IMG/VR virus record: IMGVR_UViG_3300016472_000673
Location: 1-62,799 of that record
Source of the DNA: a virus
Taxonomy: Duplodnaviria > Caudoviricetes
Direction: 5' to 3' (one strand)
Length of the DNA stretch: 62,799 bases
Part shown: piece after piece, positions 4,222 to 46,985 of the stretch
Position numbering within the stretch: the first letter of the stretch is position 1
How the letters are laid out: each line of letters starts with the position of its first letter
Translations under genes and position numbers: made by a program
Notes under the pieces: model-generated
Databases searched by the model: none
Told to the model about the DNA's origin: nothing
What the model saw: only the letters and a program-made list of their open reading frames with translations

Positions 4222-5835
4222 ATGAGTAAAATAATTAAATTTGATAGGGAAGCAAAAGAAAAACTACAGGACGGTATTAAAAAAGTATATGATGCTGTAA
4301 CTGTAACAATGGGTCCTTTTGGACGTAATGTATTGATTGAGAAAGAACATGGACAAATAGTATCAACTAAAGATGGTGTTAGTGTTTCCAAGACAATTAC
4401 ATTAGAAGATCCAATTGAAAATATGGGTGCTACTGTAATTAAGCAAGCAGCACAAAAAACAGTTGATCAAGCAGGTGATGGCACAACAACATCAACGTTG
4501 TTGGCTTATAATATTGCTAATCAAGCACTTGAAGCAACATCAAAACCATCAGTTAATGTTACTCAAGTAAAGTATGGTATTGAAGCAGCTGTTAAAGCAG
4601 TAATTAATGAATTAAAAGAAATATCAATAGATATTACTGATGAAAAGCAAATTAAACAAATTGCTACATTATCGGCTAATGGTGATGAAGAAATAGGTGA
4701 GCTAGTAGCTACTGCTATTGATAAAGTAGGAAGAGATGGTATTGTAACTGTTGAAGAGTCACGCTCCGGTGAAACATCACTCGAAGTAGTAGAGGGACTT
4801 CAATTTGATCGTGGTTATAAGTCACCATATATGGTGACAGATAACAATACAATGCAATCTGTTCTCAACGATGCTTTGATTTTATTGTATGATGGTCGTT
4901 TAAGTGCTGTAAAAGATCTATTACCTGTACTCGAACGCGTATCACAAGAAAATAAAGCATTACTTATTATTGCTGAAGATATTGATGGTGAAGCACTTTC
5001 AACACTCATTGTAAATAAAATGAGAGGTATATTGAAAGTAGTAGCTGTTAAAGCACCTGACTTTGGTGAACGTAGAACATTAATTTTAGAAGATATTGCT
5101 GTTGTAACTGGTGGTACTGTAATTTCACCTCAAAAAGGTATGAAATTAGAACGCTTTAACATGGAATGGTTCGGTAAAGCAAGAACTATTACTGTAGGTA
5201 AAGATACTACTACTATTGTAGATGGTAAAGGTGAAGCTGAAAAAATTGACGCTCGTGTTGATGAATTAAAGTCTCAAATCGATAATGCAAATTCACCTTA
5301 TGAAGTTGAACGTTTACAAGATCGTTTAGCAAAAATGATTGGTGGTGTAGCTATTATTAATGTAGGTGGAGGTACTGAAGTTGAAATGAAAGAGAGAAAA
5401 GATCGTATTGACGATGCACTTCAAGCAACTAAAGCTGCACTCGAAGAAGGTATTGTAGCTGGTGCTGGTATGGCATTATTCAATAGCAGAAACGCTATTA
5501 GTAATAGAGATAGTAGCGATTTTGGATTAGGAGGTAGAATAGTATTCAAAGCATGTTCTGCTCCGCTTAATAAAATCCTGTCTAATGCTGGTGAAGACTA
5601 TTACGAATGGATTTCAGTTTTAAAAGAAGAAAATGCTGTACCTGATATTATAGGAGAAAGAACAGTTAATGCTTTTAAATCAGGTATTATTGATCCTACT
5701 AAAGTAGTACGCTGTGCTCTTGAAAATGCAGCTGCAGCTGCAGTTACATTGCTAATGACAGAAGCAGTAATACATGACAAACCATCTGAGAAGAAAAAGA
5801 CAGATGATTTTGGGATGGCAAATTTAGAAATGTAA
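4222..5835 (+). CDS. groEL: Chaperonin GroEL
   Basis: GDGTTT, EGLQFDRGY, KAPDFGERR, GIIDPTKV. Confidence 0.98.
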   Translation: MSKIIKFDREAKEKLQDGIKKVYDAVTVTMGPFGRNVLIEKEHGQIVSTKDGVSVSKTITLEDPIENMGATVIKQAAQKTVDQAGDGTTTSTLLAYNIANQALEATSKPSVNVTQVKYGIEAAVKAVINELKEISIDITDEKQIKQIATLSANGDEEIGELVATAIDKVGRDGIVTVEESRSGETSLEVVEGLQFDRGYKSPYMVTDNNTMQSVLNDALILLYDGRLSAVKDLLPVLERVSQENKALLIIAEDIDGEALSTLIVNKMRGILKVVAVKAPDFGERRTLILEDIAVVTGGTVISPQKGMKLERFNMEWFGKARTITVGKDTTTIVDGKGEAEKIDARVDELKSQIDNANSPYEVERLQDRLAKMIGGVAIINVGGGTEVEMKERKDRIDDALQATKAALEEGIVAGAGMALFNSRNAISNRDSSDFGLGGRIVFKACSAPLNKILSNAGEDYYEWISVLKEENAVPDIIGERTVNAFKSGIIDPTKVVRCALENAAAAAVTLLMTEAVIHDKPSEKKKTDDFGMANLEM

Positions 5836-29588: not shown

Positions 29589-30437
29589 TTAAGCAAGTAA
29601 TTTATAATATTCTTTAAAATGTTTTAATCGATCAGGTAAACCAATTGTACCTCCATTAACACATTTAGTTACATTCACAACAGTAGTATCACTAGCATCA
29701 ACACATCTGCCTAAACAATTCTTACTAAAAAACCAAGCAGCAGATAATAATGGATACTTAGTTGCTACTAAATCAGGTTCAGCTACAACATCAACACCAA
29801 TAGAATCACTAAATGCTTTATAATTATTTTTACCTGTTAATTGAATATAACCACGTCCGCGATATTTAAAACCTTCACCTGATGCTTCGGGACCGTTACC
29901 CATTCTGCCACCATAAACACGACTAGCTATTTTTTGAGGGTTGCGAGCATAAGAATCAGGAGACACATCTCTAAAATATTTAGGAAATATTTTTCTTAAA
30001 CCATCAGCTGAATAGTTTAAATTTTCACTTACTAGTCTAAATCCTCCTGATTCGTGACCACATTGAGCTAAGAAATGAGCTAATTTAACAGGATTATTAA
30101 TTCCAAACTTTGAAGCAACTTCAGGTATTTGAGATATAACAGTATCAGGTATATGTCCTTTTAATCGTTCAATATTTAATCCTGAAACAGTAGGTATAGT
30201 AGGAGAAGGTGATGGAGTAGATGGAGCTGAAGTTGGTTGGAGATTAACTGTTATTAATTTATTCCAAACTAAATCACCAACTACACCATCAACAACAATA
30301 TTATTATTTATTTGAAATCTTTTAACTGCTTCTTCAGTATTTTTTCCAAAAATACCATCTGCGGTTAAACCTAATTTCTGTTGAATTTTTTTAACATCGT
30401 CACTTTTGGACCCAACTTTAAGTAGTGGCATAAACAC
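29589..30437 (-). CDS. Endolysin: peptidoglycan-binding domain plus GH19 catalytic domain
   Basis: ADGIFGKNTEEAVKRFQ, P/T linker, HFLAQCGHESGG, YRGRGYIQLTGK. Confidence 0.93.
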   Translation of the reverse strand: MFMPLLKVGSKSDDVKKIQQKLGLTADGIFGKNTEEAVKRFQINNNIVVDGVVGDLVWNKLITVNLQPTSAPSTPSPSPTIPTVSGLNIERLKGHIPDTVISQIPEVASKFGINNPVKLAHFLAQCGHESGGFRLVSENLNYSADGLRKIFPKYFRDVSPDSYARNPQKIASRVYGGRMGNGPEASGEGFKYRGRGYIQLTGKNNYKAFSDSIGVDVVAEPDLVATKYPLLSAAWFFSKNCLGRCVDASDTTVVNVTKCVNGGTIGLPDRLKHFKEYYKLLA

Positions 30438-31251: not shown

Positions 31252-31731
31252 ATGAAAAAAATATTTTTAATTTTCACTCTACTATTATCTTTTATTTTCA
31301 ATTCTTATTCAGTTGATCCACAACGTGGAAAAGATTTTGAAGAAATAAGTAAAGAAAATTTATGGAAAGTGATTAATGAAATGGATATTCAACATCCTAA
31401 AATTGTATTTGCTCAAGCATTACTTGAAACAGGAAATTTTACAAGTTATGTTTTTAAAACAAATAACAATTTATTTGGTATGAAAATGCCAGGAAAACGT
31501 CCAACTGTAGCTAAAAAACCAAAGAAAAAAGGAGGGTATGCTAGATATGACAGTTGGATACAATCAGTAGAAGACTATAAGTTATTCCAAGACTATGTCT
31601 TTGAAAGAAGAGGAGAACTTGGAGAAACAAAATATTTTAGTTATCTTGATAGGATGTATTGCGAAAGTACAGGTTATAGTCAAAAACTTAAAAAAATAAT
31701 AGAAAAAAATAAACAAATATTTAACAGTTAA
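31252..31731 (+). CDS. GH73 glucosaminidase-like peptidoglycan hydrolase with signal peptide
   Basis: AQALLETG, NNLFGMK, Y..W..SV.DY; hydrophobic N-terminus. Confidence 0.85.
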   Translation: MKKIFLIFTLLLSFIFNSYSVDPQRGKDFEEISKENLWKVINEMDIQHPKIVFAQALLETGNFTSYVFKTNNNLFGMKMPGKRPTVAKKPKKKGGYARYDSWIQSVEDYKLFQDYVFERRGELGETKYFSYLDRMYCESTGYSQKLKKIIEKNKQIFNS

Positions 31732-31738
31732 TTTAAAC

Positions 31739-31895
31739 TGTCAGATGGTGAAAAGCGTTACGCATGGCAGACACACCCACTCGTCTAGTGGGCGCAGATA
31801 ACGAGATAGATAAGTAATATGGGTTGACCACAAAAGCCGGCTTATTTTGTTACTTATTGAATCGCTGTATAGAGGTTCGAATCCTTTTCTGACAG
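31739..31895 (+). ncRNA. tRNA-like RNA, 157 nt, nominal GTC anticodon, 78-nt variable arm
   Basis: Acceptor tgtcaga/tctgaca, D stem gtg/cac, cccac-tcgtcta-gtggg, T arm agagg-ttcgaat-ccttt. Confidence 0.8.
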
Positions 31896-31921
31896 CAAAT
31901 ATTTATATTAAATAATAATTA

Positions 31922-32239
31922 ATGGCCTGTCACTGTTTATCTTTAAAAGATCAAAAAGAATTCTACAGTTTACTCAAAGCTAGGAATTCAGATTTGATTA
32001 TAAAAATGGTAAGATGTGTTATTAGTGCTACTAAACGTAATAAATCAAGTATTGATATATTTGATATAACATTTAAAAACTTAGATTCATTAATATTTAC
32101 TGTTGAAAAAAGTCAATATAAAGAATTACTTTCTAATTGTTTAGATGATCTTATAGTAGTTGAAGAATATGAGTTATGTGCTGAGATTAAAAAGATATTA
32201 GAAAATAAAAAAGGAAGAAAAAAAAAAGAAGTTCTTTAA
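31922..32239 (+). CDS. Small protein with C-terminal UVR-like motif
   Basis: EEYELCAEIKKIL; similar layout to ORF 27504. Confidence 0.6.
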   Translation: MACHCLSLKDQKEFYSLLKARNSDLIIKMVRCVISATKRNKSSIDIFDITFKNLDSLIFTVEKSQYKELLSNCLDDLIVVEEYELCAEIKKILENKKGRKKKEVL

Positions 32240-32244
32240 AATAT

Positions 32245-32620
32245 GGGGCATACCGGTATTGATTCGGAAATGAAGATAATACTACATGCAGACAAAGTAA
32301 GAATGTCTTTAAATACTTACAAAACAATAAACGCAGAAGAATTATCTTCTTTCACCTTCGATGATGCTATGGCTTTCGTTGGTGCCGATTACGCTGTAGC
32401 AGCCTAATCACTCCCGCACACATCGTGGGATTTAAAAAGAATGTGAAATTAGGCGGTGTTTTTTGGTTCAAGCCTATTTAACAGGAACCGGCCACATTTG
32501 AGAGTAATAGTGGAAAAATAAAAACTCTATATTTACTTATTGTGAATAATAAGATAAGCATGTGAGACGTTAGTATTATTGTTCTTTGCGAAGACCTGGG
32601 TTCGAATCCCAGATGCTCCA
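32245..32620 (+). ncRNA. ssrA: tmRNA
   Basis: ggggcat/atgctcc-a with G3-U70, ggtattga 5' motif, T arm, tag frame 32333-32407 ending YAVAA*. Confidence 0.95.
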
Positions 32621-32666
32621 CTAGATTTTTTATATTTATTAGTGTTCACCGTTAAAACTAATAAGT

Positions 32667-34015: not shown

Positions 34016-34297
34016 ATGAACTACAAAAACATGCTCGAGTATCTTCGTGGCAAGAAGATATATGGGAATAAATTGGACGCACCCGAAATAACACGGGTAC
34101 TAAAGATCATCAACAAGAACCACGATGATGAGTACGGAACAATAAACGAACATTACGTTGTCACGTACGAGATCAGAGCTAATATACACAACAACGTTTT
34201 CAAAAGACAAACGTGTCTCGTAAATAAATCATCCTATAAGTCTTGGGAAAAAGAAAAAAAATCCGTAATATTATTAAAACAAAACGAAAATGAATAA
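34016..34297 (+). CDS. Hypothetical protein
   Basis: 93 aa; more C/G-ending codons than the flanks. Confidence 0.6.
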   Translation: MNYKNMLEYLRGKKIYGNKLDAPEITRVLKIINKNHDDEYGTINEHYVVTYEIRANIHNNVFKRQTCLVNKSSYKSWEKEKKSVILLKQNENE

Positions 34298-35444
34298 CGT
34301 AGAACAACAATACTTAGACCTGGTTAAAGACATATTAGAAAACGGTCACACTAAGGGTGATAGGACTGGTACTGGTACTAAATCCGTATTTGGTAGAACC
34401 ATACGCCATTCTATGAAGGATGGATTTCCACTTCTCACTACAAAGAAGATGGCGTGGAAAACGATGGTGACCGAACTCCTATGGTTCTTACGCGGAGACA
34501 CAAACATTAAGTATCTTGTGGATAATGGATGTCATATTTGGGATGGTGATGCATATAAGAATTACTGTAACCAAATTCCTGAGTATAGTAAACAGTTTAC
34601 TATACCTAAGGAAGAGTATCTTAACAAAATCAAAACCGATGATGAGTTTGCAAAGAAGTGGGGAGAACTCGGACCTGTGTATGGAGCTGGTTGGCGTAGG
34701 TGGAAACGTAATGATTCATTTATTGTTGAAGACGATGTTTGGAAAAATAACGAAGGCTGGTGTTCATTAAAAGATTTTAATAAAGATGAATTGTATATTG
34801 ACCAAATCGCAAACGCAATTCACCTACTGAAGACAGACCCCGATAGTAGGAGGATACTTGTGAATGCCTGGAACCCATCGGATTTACCAGAGATGGTTCT
34901 ACCGCCCTGTCACTACTCGTTTCAATTTTATACGAGAGAGTTGACTTGGGAAGAACGAGTTCAATGGGTTATGAAGAACACTGACGTTGAATGGGAAAAT
35001 CTTTACATTGTTGAAGAAATAGCTAAACCAACTACCCCTAAACGAGCAATCTCTTTAATTTGGTCGCAGAGATCAGTGGACGCGGGATTGGGGCTCCCGT
35101 TTAATATCGCATCCTATGCGCTTCTATTAGAAATAATCGCCAAACAAGTTAATATGATTCCCGAAGAAGTGATTGGTAATTTGGGAGATTGTCATATCTA
35201 TCTCAATCACATAGATGGATTGAAAGAGCAGTTGACAAGAACACCGTATGAATTACCTAAATTAAATATTAATACAGAGTTTTGGCCAACAGAAAGTGGT
35301 GAATGTGGTGTAGGATTGATAGATGCTAAAGCTGTTCTTGACTCATTTAGTAATGATAGTTTTTGTAAGTGCTTATTAGAAGAAGATATCCAATTGTACA
35401 ATTATCAGTATCATCCTAGTATTAAACTTCCATTGTCAAATTAA
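34290..35444 (+). CDS. thyA: Thymidylate synthase with insertions
   Basis: DRTGTGT, ELLWFL, LGPVYG, LPPCH, QRSVD, PFNIASY, HIYLNH. Confidence 0.97.
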   Translation: MNNVEQQYLDLVKDILENGHTKGDRTGTGTKSVFGRTIRHSMKDGFPLLTTKKMAWKTMVTELLWFLRGDTNIKYLVDNGCHIWDGDAYKNYCNQIPEYSKQFTIPKEEYLNKIKTDDEFAKKWGELGPVYGAGWRRWKRNDSFIVEDDVWKNNEGWCSLKDFNKDELYIDQIANAIHLLKTDPDSRRILVNAWNPSDLPEMVLPPCHYSFQFYTRELTWEERVQWVMKNTDVEWENLYIVEEIAKPTTPKRAISLIWSQRSVDAGLGLPFNIASYALLLEIIAKQVNMIPEEVIGNLGDCHIYLNHIDGLKEQLTRTPYELPKLNINTEFWPTESGECGVGLIDAKAVLDSFSNDSFCKCLLEEDIQLYNYQYHPSIKLPLSN

Positions 35445-46901: not shown

Positions 46902-46985
46902 ACCTGGGTGGAGTAATGGAAGCCTCGACAGACTTAAAATCTGTTGGTCAGAATGACCGTGCGGGTTCGATTCCCGCCCCAGGTA
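46902..46985 (+). tRNA. tRNA-Leu(TAA)
   Basis: acctggg/cccaggt, acaga-cttaaaa-tctgt, variable stem, A73. Confidence 0.92.

What the first reader, a model, noticed from the sequence alone, without database searches (positions are those of the whole stretch)
31739..31895. 157-nt tRNA-like RNA with a giant variable arm and an extra D-loop hairpin
Seen: a complete cloverleaf frame with a 7-8 bp acceptor, Leu/Ser-type D arm and canonical T loop. It also has a gcg-tta-cgc hairpin inside the D loop and an anticodon loop TCGTCTA with C33 and T37 instead of U33 and purine 37. The 78-nt variable region folds back on itself (gcag/ctgt, cga/tcg, gataagtaat/gttacttatt). The insert is not at a usual intron position and has no visible group I core. 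Retained pairing, including G-U pairs, argues for selection on structure rather than decay. Inference: a non-decoding tRNA mimic, such as a nuclease decoy, ribosome or synthetase modulator, or a tRNA scaffold carrying an RNA cargo. It lies 350 nt upstream of tmRNA.
Basis: partly seen in the sequence, partly recalled or inferred. Interest (0 to 1): 0.82.

Follow-up and report, generated by a model that had tools for sequence, protein, structure and literature searches.

The report
Giant-armed aspartate-type tRNA-like phage RNA
This lake phage carries a real, conserved 157-base RNA gene built like a transfer RNA with a 78-base folded side arm; it is the phage copy of an uncatalogued RNA family of Bacteroidota bacteria that looks chargeable with aspartate, unfit for reading codons, and tied to an asparagine regulator.

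Summary
Window 31739-31895 (+) folds as a full cloverleaf with a D-loop hairpin, the loop UCGUCUA (C33, U37) and a 78-nt arm. ARAGORN and Rfam 15 do not call it.

It is not chance. On 48 distinct viral copies, 98% of cells pair (shuffles 84%, slid 39-49%) and 26 of 40 pairs show double changes. A model built from them finds 48 more viral copies of 91-176 nt. It also finds copies in 14 of 151 sampled Bacteroidota and 0 of 121 Pseudomonadota.

All full-length copies keep U1-A72 and G73, and nearly all keep GUCU in the loop. Phage copies sit in tRNA arrays, some beside a normal tRNA-Asp. Their arm tips are perfect palindromes of many sequences, which suggests self-pairing.

In the bacterial sample the RNA occurs exactly where an E. 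coli-AsnC-like regulator and GatB both occur: 15 of 15 against 0 of 14.

My best reading, unproven: an off-ribosome carrier charged with aspartate, possibly amidated to asparagine. I got no expression data. This scan found the same family earlier on other DNA. Five paper searches for such an RNA found no description.

The parts
31739..31895 (+). Whole tRNA-like RNA: U1 to discriminator G73, 157 nt. C74 is encoded at 31896; CCA is not encoded.
   Evidence: sequence. Model R1 scores it 157.1 bits, but it is one of the training sequences. Close relatives L002 and L003 are about 96-97% identical at the same place.
31739..31745 (+). Acceptor stem 5' strand UGUCAGA, pairing with 31888-31894. U1-A72, G2-C71 and U3-A70 are nearly invariant.
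   Evidence: 7 of 7 pairs in all 48 copies. helix 1: 100% paired, 6 of 7 pairs with double changes. U1:A72 plus G73 in 95 of 96 viral copies (the other is cut short) and 28 of 28 bacterial copies.
31748..31774 (+). D arm: Leu-like 3-bp stem GUG/CAC, with A14 A15 and G18 G19 (31766-31767).
   Evidence: helix 2: 99.3% paired; the 11:24 pair switches U-A to C-G in 8 copies. Invariant columns A14, A15, G28, G29. The best non-family R1 hits are tRNA-Leu genes (window 46902-46985 at 39.1 bits; T4 tRNA-Leu at 33.8 bits).
31755..31763 (+). Extra hairpin GCG-UUA-CGC inserted in the D loop. It is specific to one phage clade and absent from the bacterial copies.
   Evidence: In 43 of 69 viral copies with a D loop of 12 nt or more, this insert holds a perfect palindrome of 8 nt or more (null mean 3.4, maximum 11 in 1000 shuffles), with 25 distinct palindromes of 6 nt or more. 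The window's own copy has an odd 3-nt loop and is not a full palindrome.
31776..31792 (+). Anticodon-like arm CCCAC-UCGUCUA-GUGGG. G34 U35 C36 lie at 31783-31785; also C33, U37, A38.
   Evidence: helix 3: 99.6% paired; one pair occurs as A-U, U-A, U-G, G-C and C-G; the loop reads NNGUCUM in 95 of 96 viral copies.
31793..31870 (+). 78-nt variable region. P1 is 31794-31797 / 31865-31868, P2 is 31802-31804 / 31862-31864, P3 is 31809-31819 / 31848-31858. Internal loops read GAUA and GAA.
   Evidence: helices 4-7: 91-100% paired, 12 of 17 pairs with double changes.
31817..31831 (+). Conserved apex motif AUAUGGGUUGACCAC.
   Evidence: The 18-mer around it occurs exactly in 65 IMG/VR stretches. The core GG(G)UUGACCAC also appears in copies found from a 5' anchor that does not include it and in bacterial copies. 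No covariation bears on its pairing: helix 8 never varies.
31834..31843 (+). Self-complementary tip AAGCCGGCUU, a perfect 10-nt palindrome.
   Evidence: 68 of 74 viral copies that carry the GACCAC motif have a perfect palindrome of 8 nt or more here (null mean 6.8, maximum 16), with 15 distinct sequences. The predicted self-duplex is -16.7 kcal/mol.
31871..31887 (+). T arm AGAGG-UUCGAAU-CCUUU, preceded by U48 at 31870.
   Evidence: 5 of 5 pairs in 47 of 48 copies. helix 9: 100% paired, 4 of 5 pairs with double changes.
31252..31731 (+). Upstream gene, endolysin-like. It ends 7 nt before the RNA. It is context, not part of the RNA.
   Evidence: phrog_21890, E 1.8e-11.
32245..32621 (+). Phage tmRNA, 350 nt downstream. 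It is context only.
   Evidence: (76.7 bits against a gathering score of 47).

Best explanation
This is the phage-borne copy of a tRNA-derived RNA family of Bacteroidota. I give the reading in layers, each with its own odds.

(1) Shown, about 0.95: it is a conserved, structured RNA gene. It has a complete class-II (tRNA-Leu-like) cloverleaf core and a modular extra arm.

(2) Inferred from anatomy and context, about 0.8: it is transcribed with the tRNA/tmRNA cluster. RNase P and 3' trimming cut it out like a tRNA, and it receives CCA, because only C74 is encoded.

(3) Inferred, about 0.55: it works off the ribosome. It keeps G73 and G34-U35-C36, which aspartyl-tRNA synthetase reads. It also has the U1-A72 pair of the hosts' tRNA-Asn. 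But it carries U37 (and C33 in this phage clade), where decoding tRNAs have a purine (and U33).

(4) Inferred, about 0.3-0.35: it is a carrier on which aspartate is loaded and then amidated to asparagine by the host amidotransferase GatCAB. In bacteria this would be controlled by an AsnC-type regulator. The phage expresses its copy from a tRNA array, free of that control, perhaps to feed an Asn-rich proteome (Asn is 7.2% of residues here).

(5) Inferred, about 0.5: the phage clade's self-complementary arm tip, and in most relatives the D-loop hairpin too, make the RNA pair with itself into dimers or chains.

The confidence figure given for this explanation is for layers 3 and 4 taken together as a mechanism.
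For: Structure: one search gives 98.0% of cells paired, against 84.0% in shuffles (0 of 500 reach it) and 39-49% with partners slid. 26 of 40 pairs have double changes.

Family size and range:
- 48 distinct viral copies found from the apex 18-mer.
- 48 more distinct copies (56 hits) found from a 5' anchor.
- 14 of 151 sampled Bacteroidota genomes against 0 of 121 Pseudomonadota (Fisher p 3.6e-4).

tRNA-like handling: 30 of 96 viral copies lie within 20 nt of a called tRNA or tmRNA gene. 61 lie within 500 nt, and all 61 are on the same strand.

Identity marks: U1:A72 plus G73 in 95 of 96 viral and 28 of 28 bacterial copies; GUCU in 95 of 96 viral loops. The five strong Asp determinants are G73, G34, U35, C36 and C38 (PMC9976931, section 29 read). 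Bacterial GatCAB is promoted by U1-A72 and blocked by G1-C72 (PMC1635274, abstract read). Host tRNA-Asn genes in five RNA-positive genomes have U1-A72, G73 and C74.

Not the phage's own tRNA-Asp: 7 viral loci also hold a canonical class-I tRNA-Asp with CUGUCAC and G1-C72.

Asparagine link:
- An Lrp/AsnC-family gene lies divergently upstream in 3 of 3 loci scanned with Pfam.
- It lies beside the RNA in 9 of the 14 sampled RNA-positive genomes. Partial copies beside it in G062 and G046 add two more.
- Its closest solved relative is E. coli AsnC (2cg4, E 8.5e-38; next best 1.2e-22).
- The NCBIfam AsnC model scores 180 bits, against 72 for the next family. This is below the 227-bit cut-off.

Phyletic pattern in the 151 genomes: the AsnC ortholog is in 29, including all RNA-positive ones. 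Of those 29, the 15 with GatB all have the RNA and the 14 without GatB have none (Fisher p 1.3e-8).

GatCAB has no obligatory translation job in these hosts: AsnRS and GlnRS were each found in 5 of 5 RNA-positive genomes tested.

Self-pairing: (68 of 74 and 43 of 69 copies; 15 and 25 distinct palindromes). One D-insert is self-complementary only if G-U pairs count (20 nt, L352), which points to selection on the RNA rather than the DNA. Co-folding two copies gives -95.3 kcal/mol against 2 x -41.1.
Against: - I have no evidence of expression, end processing, CCA addition or charging. The one RNA run that I laid covers the tmRNA but not this element, and contigs cannot show absence.
- The window's copy has A38, not the determinant C38. 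Bacterial tRNA-Asp strictly keeps G1-C72 (PMC9976931, section 29), so charging by AspRS is not assured.
- The GatB tail domain binds the D loop and sits near the variable loop, and one extra D-loop base blocks amidation (PMC1635274 abstract; PMC2811023 passages). A 9-nt D-loop hairpin and a 78-nt arm could clash with it.
- GatB is near-universal in the phylum (126 of 151). Without conditioning on AsnC, its link to the RNA is not significant (p 0.13).
- The 15-against-14 split may be one clade effect. Taxonomy was hidden from me. Only G020 hints at an independent joint absence.
- gatB lies more than 140 kb from the RNA in the 5 genomes where both sit on the same contig (coordinates).
- RNA-positive genomes have 2-5 AsnB-type asparagine synthetases (5 of 5 tested), so the RNA is not needed as the sole route to Asn.
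- No AsnC-like ORF occurs in the 96 viral loci, and no GatB in 5 complete phage genomes that carry the RNA.
- Two tandem bacterial copies have UUC in place of GUC, and one has C37.
Confidence: 0.4

Rival explanations
1. A protein-titrating tRNA mimic that needs no charging. It binds and sequesters or modulates a tRNA-binding protein: AspRS, GatCAB, a queuine-inserting or other anticodon-loop enzyme, or a host tRNA-cleaving defence nuclease.
For: The loop GUCU, the acceptor end and the apex GGGUUGACCAC are invariant, which fits protein recognition. The phage clade has derived changes (C33 in 64 of 96 copies, a D-loop hairpin, palindromic tips) that could tune or block an enzyme. Phages carry it next to ordinary tRNAs.
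Against: The family is chromosomal in Bacteroidota and co-inherited with an AsnC-like regulator. That points to host physiology, not to phage counter-defence. No candidate nuclease or partner was identified. The intact G73 and 7-bp acceptor with encoded C74 are features a pure decoy of the anticodon loop would not need.
Confidence: 0.2
2. A real decoding tRNA. Either it is an unusual class-II tRNA-Asp isoacceptor, or it is charged by SerRS (long arm plus G73) or another synthetase and recodes GAY codons.
For: The tRNA core and tertiary-pair nucleotides are complete. ARAGORN calls the two shortest members (91-92 nt) tRNA-Asp(gtc). Most bacterial copies have U33. [quoted passage not shown] Class-II tRNAs with non-Leu/Ser anticodons exist: nev-tRNAs (PMC3333845) and allo-tRNAs (PMC5389517), both seen only as abstracts in search listings.
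Against: U37 is nearly universal in the family, and C33 occurs in 64 of 96 viral copies. Canonical tRNA-Asp genes co-exist in the same phage tRNA arrays. Table-11 ORFs in the window are long and ordinary, so nothing suggests recoding. The arm varies from about 15 to about 130 nt, which is odd for a ribosomal substrate.
Confidence: 0.1
3. A dedicated aminoacyl donor for some other aminoacyl-tRNA-dependent transferase (cell envelope, natural product, or DNA/RNA modification) rather than for GatCAB.
For: The anatomical arguments are the same as for the best explanation: chargeable but non-decoding. There is precedent for off-ribosome use by a phage enzyme: Mu Mom uses glycyl-tRNA to modify DNA adenine (PMC13219725, passages read).
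Against: No conserved transferase gene lies beside the RNA. Downstream neighbours differ: TrmB-like, DUF3078 twice, AMP-binding, MerR and others. The only conserved partner is AsnC.
Confidence: 0.1
4. A self-assembling RNA whose function depends on forming dimers, rings or chains through its two palindromic tips, as GOLLD, ROOL and OLE form homo-oligomers. The tRNA body would serve mainly for processing and stability. This can co-exist with the other readings.
For: (68 of 74 and 43 of 69 copies; many distinct palindromes whose centres are also self-complementary). (the dimer is favoured by 13.1 kcal/mol in the nearest-neighbour model). GOLLD, ROOL and OLE form homo-oligomers (PMC12286853, abstract in a search listing).
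Against: The bacterial copies mostly lack long palindromes here (6 of 17 have 8 nt or more) and have no D-loop insert. Self-pairing is therefore a phage-clade add-on and not the family's core function. The window's own D-loop hairpin is not a full palindrome. A fold program cannot model kissing loops, and no experiment was done.
Confidence: 0.1
5. A decaying tRNA, an intron-bearing tRNA-Asp, or a chance fold.
For: The single-sequence fold energy is unremarkable (z -1.43). ARAGORN and Rfam do not call it.
Against: Covariation in every helix including the arm. More than 100 distinct copies in phages and bacteria (124 distinct). No Rfam intron or ribozyme hit at E<=10. The insert is at the variable region and is far shorter than the roughly 200 nt or more of group I introns (recalled).
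Confidence: 0.02

Closest known systems
Bacterial class II tRNA-Leu (within Rfam RF00005)
   Same: 7-bp acceptor; 3-bp D stem with GGUGAAA...GGCAGAC; A14; an A15-U48 pair possible; G18 G19; a canonical T loop; a long variable arm. The best non-family hits of model R1 are tRNA-Leu genes (39.1 bits in the window; 33.8 bits in T4).
   Different: G73 instead of the Leu determinant A73; U1-A72; GUC in the loop with U37 (and C33 here); an arm of 78 nt against about 15 nt; a hairpin inside the D loop. It is not scored by RF00005 even at E<=10.
tRNA-Asn as cofactor of the indirect pathway (AspRS plus GatCAB, the transamidosome; PMC1635274, PMC2811023)
   Same: U1-A72 and G73, as in the hosts' own tRNA-Asn. 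The anticodon is acceptable to AspRS. In the sample the RNA occurs only in genomes that have GatB.
   Different: The anticodon is GUC, not GUU. It has a class II body, a giant arm and (in phages) a D-loop insert close to where the GatB tail binds. It looks non-decoding. Charging and amidation are untested.
Phage T4 species 1 and species 2 RNAs (rnaC, rnaD)
   Same: Stable RNAs of 139 and 119 nt annotated at the end of a phage tRNA array. rnaC has a tRNA-like T hairpin GGGUUCGAAUCCC. Their function remains unknown (recalled).
   Different: Not homologous. R1 scores rnaC 15.7 bits, no better than unrelated T4 tRNAs (12-21 bits), and reports nothing better than -0.4 bits (E about 7) within rnaD. 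Family members score 57 bits or more. They have no cloverleaf and no anticodon arm.
Non-canonical or non-proteinogenic tRNAs: allo-tRNAs (PMC5389517), nev-tRNAs (PMC3333845), tRNA-Sec; Bacillus cereus tRNA-Other and staphylococcal cell-wall tRNA-Gly (last two recalled)
   Same: tRNA-derived molecules whose body type and anticodon do not match, or that serve off-ribosome chemistry.
   Different: None has a 45-130-nt structured arm with a conserved apex motif, U37, an AsnC partner, or self-complementary tips. The 2020 review of non-canonical tRNAs does not contain the word Bacteroidetes (PMC7609411, term search).
GOLLD, ROOL and OLE homo-oligomeric RNAs (PMC12286853)
   Same: Phage- or prophage-associated structured RNAs, often near tRNA genes (recalled), that self-associate.
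   Different: Those are 500-800 nt (recalled) and are not tRNA-shaped. Self-association of this RNA is only predicted.

Membership tests
Canonical elongator tRNA (Rfam RF00005; ARAGORN) | Cloverleaf with 7-bp acceptor, D/T-loop tertiary nucleotides and a 7-nt anticodon loop | tested here: met
Canonical elongator tRNA (Rfam RF00005; ARAGORN) | Scores above the family's gathering threshold, or is called by a tRNA finder | tested here: not met
   ARAGORN calls only 2 of 124 family members, the 91-92-nt ones.
Canonical elongator tRNA (Rfam RF00005; ARAGORN) | U33 and a purine at position 37 | tested here: not met
   The window has C33 and U37. U37 is in 95 of 96 viral copies and C33 in 64 of 96.
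Bacterial tRNA-Asp (identity set in PMC9976931, section 29) | G73, G34, U35, C36 | tested here: met
Bacterial tRNA-Asp (identity set in PMC9976931, section 29) | C38, and the strictly conserved G1-C72 pair | tested here: not met
   The window has A38 and U1-A72. Most relatives have C38, but all have U1-A72.
Bacterial tRNA-Asp (identity set in PMC9976931, section 29) | Aminoacylation by AspRS | not testable with these tools
   Needs an in vitro charging assay.
GatCAB substrate (bacterial rules, PMC1635274) | U1-A72 first pair | tested here: met
GatCAB substrate (bacterial rules, PMC1635274) | No supernumerary D-loop nucleotide that clashes with the GatB tail | tested here: inconclusive
   The D loop carries a 9-nt hairpin ahead of G18. 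The published antideterminant is U20A, after G19. The effect of this insert is unknown.
Class II tRNA-Leu | Long variable arm and Leu-type D arm | tested here: met
Class II tRNA-Leu | Discriminator A73 (Leu determinant; table in PMC9976931) | tested here: not met
   G73
   The window itself is in the model's training set, so its 157.1 bits is by construction. L002 and L003 (about 96-97% identical) and the 5'-anchored set show membership.
Phage T4 rnaC / rnaD | Sequence and structure homology | tested here: not met
   15.7 bits on rnaC; within rnaD nothing better than -0.4 bits (E about 7).
Intron-bearing tRNA (group I or other) | Intron or ribozyme core; insertion in the anticodon loop | tested here: not met
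   No Rfam intron or ribozyme hit at E<=10. The insertion is at the variable region and is conserved with covariation.

The most novel reading that the evidence does not exclude
Bacteroidota and their large phages make asparagine on a dedicated, non-decoding tRNA-shaped cofactor. AspRS loads aspartate on it and GatCAB amidates it away from the ribosome. An AsnC regulator switches it on in the host. Phages carry a self-dimerising version, expressed from their tRNA arrays, to supply their Asn-rich proteomes. This would be an RNA-borne amino-acid biosynthesis module that viruses have taken up.
Probability: 0.25. Interest if true: 0.9.

Novelty: new variant of a known kind. Interest (0 to 1): 0.76.

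Why it matters
tRNA-like RNAs that work off the ribosome are few. Each known one (tmRNA, YrlA, cell-wall tRNAs) opened a piece of biology.

This family is large and strongly structured. It is absent from Rfam 15, and none of my five paper searches for such an RNA found it described.

It occurs in freshwater and soil Bacteroidota and in many of their large phages. It combines three features that can each be tested directly:
- a full set of charging marks on a loop that should not decode;
- strict co-inheritance with an AsnC-type regulator, and only in genomes with GatCAB;
- in phages, arm tips that stay perfectly self-complementary while their sequences change.

If the asparagine reading is right, it would explain why many Bacteroidota keep GatCAB although they have AsnRS and GlnRS. 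It would also show a virus boosting an amino-acid supply with an RNA. If it is wrong, the RNA is still a clean new system for studying tRNA mimicry and natural RNA self-assembly.

Tried and rejected
- Expression: the look-up of sequencing runs gave 19 DNA runs and one metatranscriptome run, all kept as contigs. Laying X20, X5, X6 and X3 showed an RNA contig over the tmRNA (32300-32621, 18 differences in 322 bases) and short A-rich pieces, but none over 31748-31895. Contigs cannot show absence, ends or CCA, so this says nothing either way.
- Cultured or GenBank phages: blastn of the region and of two family members against 50,697 phage records gave only chance matches of 17-39% of the query.
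- Promoters and terminators: the consensus scan matched shuffles (9 against 9.5; 0 terminators). It uses sigma-70 hexamers, which may not suit Bacteroidota.
Only 7 of the 120 loci held the RNA.
- AsnA as a displaced partner: AsnA is rare (4 of 151, none RNA-positive), so it is uninformative. The neighbours of the AsnC ortholog in RNA-negative genomes are unrelated genes (HemD, Zn peptidase, FKBP, phosphatase).
gatB is more than 140 kb away in 5 of 5 genomes with both on one contig.
- Apex motif pairing: I looked by eye for pairing of GGGUUGACCAC with the D-arm GUGGU, the anticodon loop or the 3' end, as in a T-box. Copies with GGCGG D stems keep ACCAC, so there is no covariation and I dropped the idea.
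- K-turn or loop-E assignment of the GAUAG/GAA internal loop: the sequence fits neither recalled consensus, so I left it unassigned.
- Papers: seven searches (and the term search) found no description of this RNA. One search was aimed at the GatCAB rules rather than at the RNA. Subscription journals are not covered and supplements were closed, so an sRNA list in a Bacteroidota transcriptome paper could hold it unseen.
- I did not use protein structure or complex prediction, because no protein claim needed it.
Full report
WHAT IS THERE. The window is an IMG/VR virus record of 62.8 kb, estimated 38% complete, with about 24-33% G+C. It carries a tRNA cluster (Pro, Ser, Met, Thr, Arg at 29.4-30.7 kb; Leu at 46.9 kb) and a tmRNA at 32245-32621. 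The element lies in the 190-nt gap between an endolysin-like ORF (31252-31731, phrog_21890) and a 105-aa ORF (31922-32239).

There is a 7-bp acceptor, a Leu-type D arm with an inserted GCG-UUA-CGC hairpin, and the anticodon-like arm CCCAC-UCGUCUA-GUGGG. The 78-nt variable region has three stacked helices. A canonical T arm and G73 complete it. ARAGORN does not call it. Rfam 15 has no match at gathering score or at E<=10. The fold energy of this one sequence is not unusual (z -1.43).

IT IS A FAMILY, AND THE FOLD IS SELECTED. Relatives of the upstream endolysin-like gene led to two close phages with the element at about 96-97% identity, and to two distant copies at about 68%. The most conserved stretch is the arm apex. 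As an exact 18-mer it occurs in 65 IMG/VR stretches. After removing 4 coding chance hits and one truncated copy, 48 distinct copies remained. All 48 have 7 of 7 acceptor pairs.

On their MAFFT alignment, which was not fitted to any structure, RNAalifold recovers the cloverleaf plus the arm. The pair count gives 98.0% paired cells, against 84.0% in shuffles (0 of 500 reach it) and 39-49% with partners slid. 26 of 40 pairs have changes on both sides, against 6-11 when slid. The covariation score is 0.42, against 0.06-0.09. Every helix except the invariant apex covaries.

That set was chosen by its apex. I scored 100 of the 102 new loci with a covariance model built from the first set. This gave 56 hits at E<=1e-8, 48 of them distinct, of 91-176 nt. 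The arm is modular. Short members have a simple hairpin. Long ones share GG(G)UUGACCAC.

DISTRIBUTION. The model finds the RNA in bacterial contigs titled Pedobacter and Sphingobacteriales, often as a tandem short (108-114 nt) plus long (141-145 nt) pair. In an even sample of 151 Bacteroidota genomes, 14 have strong hits (E<=4.2e-11, 108-212 nt). Three more have 83-nt hits of about 49 bits, which I take to be tRNA-Leu. One further genome (G046) has a copy cut by a contig end. None of 121 sampled Pseudomonadota has a hit (p 3.6e-4). The phage therefore most likely infects a Bacteroidota host; this is an inference.

WHAT KIND OF tRNA-LIKE RNA. The body is class II and Leu-like. The best non-family hits of the model are tRNA-Leu genes. 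The ends are not Leu-like: U1-A72 and G73 occur in 95 of 96 viral copies (the other is cut short) and in 28 of 28 bacterial copies. The loop reads NNGUCUM in 95 of 96 viral copies. Position 33 is C in 64 of 96 viral copies but U in most bacterial ones. Position 37 is U almost everywhere.

G73, G34, U35, C36 and C38 are the five strong aspartate determinants (PMC9976931, section 29). The window has four of them, with A38. U1-A72 is what bacterial GatCAB requires, and G1-C72 blocks it (PMC1635274, abstract). The hosts' own tRNA-Asn has U1-A72, G73 and C74. ARAGORN calls only the two shortest members, as tRNA-Asp(gtc).

Seven phage loci carry a canonical class-I tRNA-Asp as well, with CUGUCAC and G1-C72. 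So the element is not the phage's Asp decoder. Of the 96 viral copies, 30 lie within 20 nt of a called tRNA or tmRNA gene. 61 lie within 500 nt, all on the same strand. This is why I infer tRNA-type processing. No call tests it.

THE BACTERIAL PARTNER. In 3 of 3 loci scanned, the gene divergently upstream is an Lrp/AsnC-family regulator. A phmmer search finds its ortholog beside the RNA in 9 of the 14 sampled RNA-positive genomes and in 6 other loci. Partial copies beside it in G062 and G046 add two more. It is specifically AsnC-like: the closest solved structure is E. coli AsnC (E 8.5e-38, next best 1.2e-22). The NCBIfam AsnC model scores 180 bits, against 72 for the next family, but that is below the 227-bit cut-off. 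Other neighbours vary.

Across the 151 genomes the ortholog (E<=1e-35) is in 29, including all 14 RNA-positive genomes and G046 (p 4e-13). The remaining 14 all lack GatB and lack the RNA. In this sample, then, the RNA is present exactly where the AsnC ortholog and GatB are both present: 15 of 15 against 0 of 14 (p 1.3e-8).

CAVEATS ON THAT PATTERN. Taxonomy was hidden, and the GatB-negative genomes may be one clade. Only G020 hints at an independent event. Its AsnC is 77% identical to the Pedobacter protein and has the same amidohydrolase neighbour, with a 193-nt gap and no RNA. GatB was not found in it with two models.

GatB is in 126 of 151 genomes, so without conditioning on AsnC the link is not significant (p 0.13). 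gatB is never near the RNA. RNA-positive genomes also have AsnB homologues, AsnRS and GlnRS, each in 5 of 5 tested. So the RNA cannot be the only route to Asn. This also means GatCAB has no obligatory translational job in these genomes.

PHAGE-SPECIFIC FEATURES. In viral long forms the 26 nt after GACC hold a perfect palindrome of 8 nt or more in 68 of 74 copies. Mononucleotide shuffles give a mean of 6.8 and a maximum of 16. There are 15 distinct palindromes. The D-loop insert does so in 43 of 69 copies (null 3.4, maximum 11), with 25 distinct palindromes of 6 nt or more. The centres are palindromic too; a plain hairpin does not need that. One insert is self-complementary over 20 nt only with G-U pairs.

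This points to selection for RNA-RNA self-pairing. Bacterial copies show it less (6 of 17) and have no D-loop insert. The window's tip is AAGCCGGCUU, with a predicted self-duplex of -16.7 kcal/mol. Two copies co-fold at -95.3 kcal/mol against 2 x -41.1. Its D-loop hairpin has an odd loop and is not a full palindrome. The copies are related, so the counts are not independent events. The diversity of the palindromes is the argument.

No AsnC-like ORF lies in the 96 viral loci. No GatB is found in 5 complete phage genomes of 209-321 kb that carry the RNA, while 2 of the 5 encode an Asn-synthase-domain protein. Asn makes up 7.2% of residues in the window's ORFs.

READING. I commit to a chargeable, non-decoding tRNA-like RNA that works off the ribosome. 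Its most likely job is as a carrier on which aspartate is amidated to asparagine by GatCAB. In hosts this would be under AsnC control, and phages have taken it over. The phage clade has added self-pairing tips.

The structure, the family and the AsnC co-inheritance are shown. Processing, charging, amidation and dimerisation are inferred. The published GatB contacts with the D loop and variable loop (PMC2811023) are a real difficulty for this copy. The rivals are a protein-titrating mimic, a true decoder, a donor for another transferase (precedent: Mom, PMC13219725) and a self-assembling scaffold; they are set out with odds in their own section.

COMPARISON AND NOVELTY. T4 rnaC and rnaD are positional analogues but not homologues. 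Rfam 15 has no family for this RNA. None of my paper searches found it, but supplements were closed and subscription journals are not covered.

This scan had found the same family before on other DNA. I re-tested several of those notes. The family, the tandem bacterial genes, the AsnC neighbour and the self-complementary tips all hold. GatCAB as a genomic neighbour does not hold. A conditional co-occurrence with GatB does.

Noticed in passing
window 32245-32621 (+): Phage-encoded tmRNA with tag AEELSSFTFDDAMAFVGADYAVAA. A metatranscriptome contig of a relative covers 32300-32621 with 18 differences in 322 bases. Relatives L002 and L003 have ...FTFEDAM....
   Followed up: partly
L003 259-333; L008 5954-6039; L010 6211-6296: ARAGORN reports 'tRNA-???' genes with two-base anticodons (aa, gt) in related phages. 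Model R1 scores the L008/L009/L010 ones 34 bits, like class II tRNAs. These may be other odd tRNAs in these phages.
   Followed up: no
Viral loci, 3' flanks of the element (e.g. L088, L103, L111, L122, L135, L140; and L082, L092, L102, L117, L119, L126, L136, L146): Two recurrent conserved sequences follow the RNA in many unrelated-looking contigs. One begins CCTGAACACAGTG. The other is AGTTACYGTTCTTTGACATA...AGGAGAAA just before an ATG. They may be another small RNA and a shared promoter/RBS.
   Followed up: no
G279:C1:146442-147227 and G281:C1:71950-72759 (complete jumbo phages that carry the RNA): 2 of 5 complete phage genomes of 209-321 kb with the element encode a 488-aa ORF with an Asn_synthase domain. 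None encodes GatB.
   Followed up: partly
Bacteroidota genomes G001, G004, G010, G042, G066: These genomes hold AsnRS, GlnRS, GatB and 2-5 AsnB-type synthetases together. So the role of GatCAB there is unexplained by translation alone. GatB is in 126 of 151 sampled Bacteroidota.
   Followed up: partly
L386 and L393 (G138:C1:3852069-3852399): Two tandem short bacterial copies have CUUUCUC in the loop (UUC, a Glu-type triplet) in place of GUC, and keep U37, U1-A72 and G73. L380 has GUCC, with C37.
   Followed up: no
window 4222-5835, 34290-35444, 29589-30437: The phage encodes a GroEL-like chaperonin (phrog_5725, E 2.9e-147), a thymidylate synthase (phrog_160) and a second, larger endolysin-like protein on the minus strand inside the tRNA cluster.
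   Followed up: no
window 31832: The window has one extra A in ACAAAAGCC compared with nearly all relatives. 14 contigs of a lake DNA run lack it.
   Followed up: no
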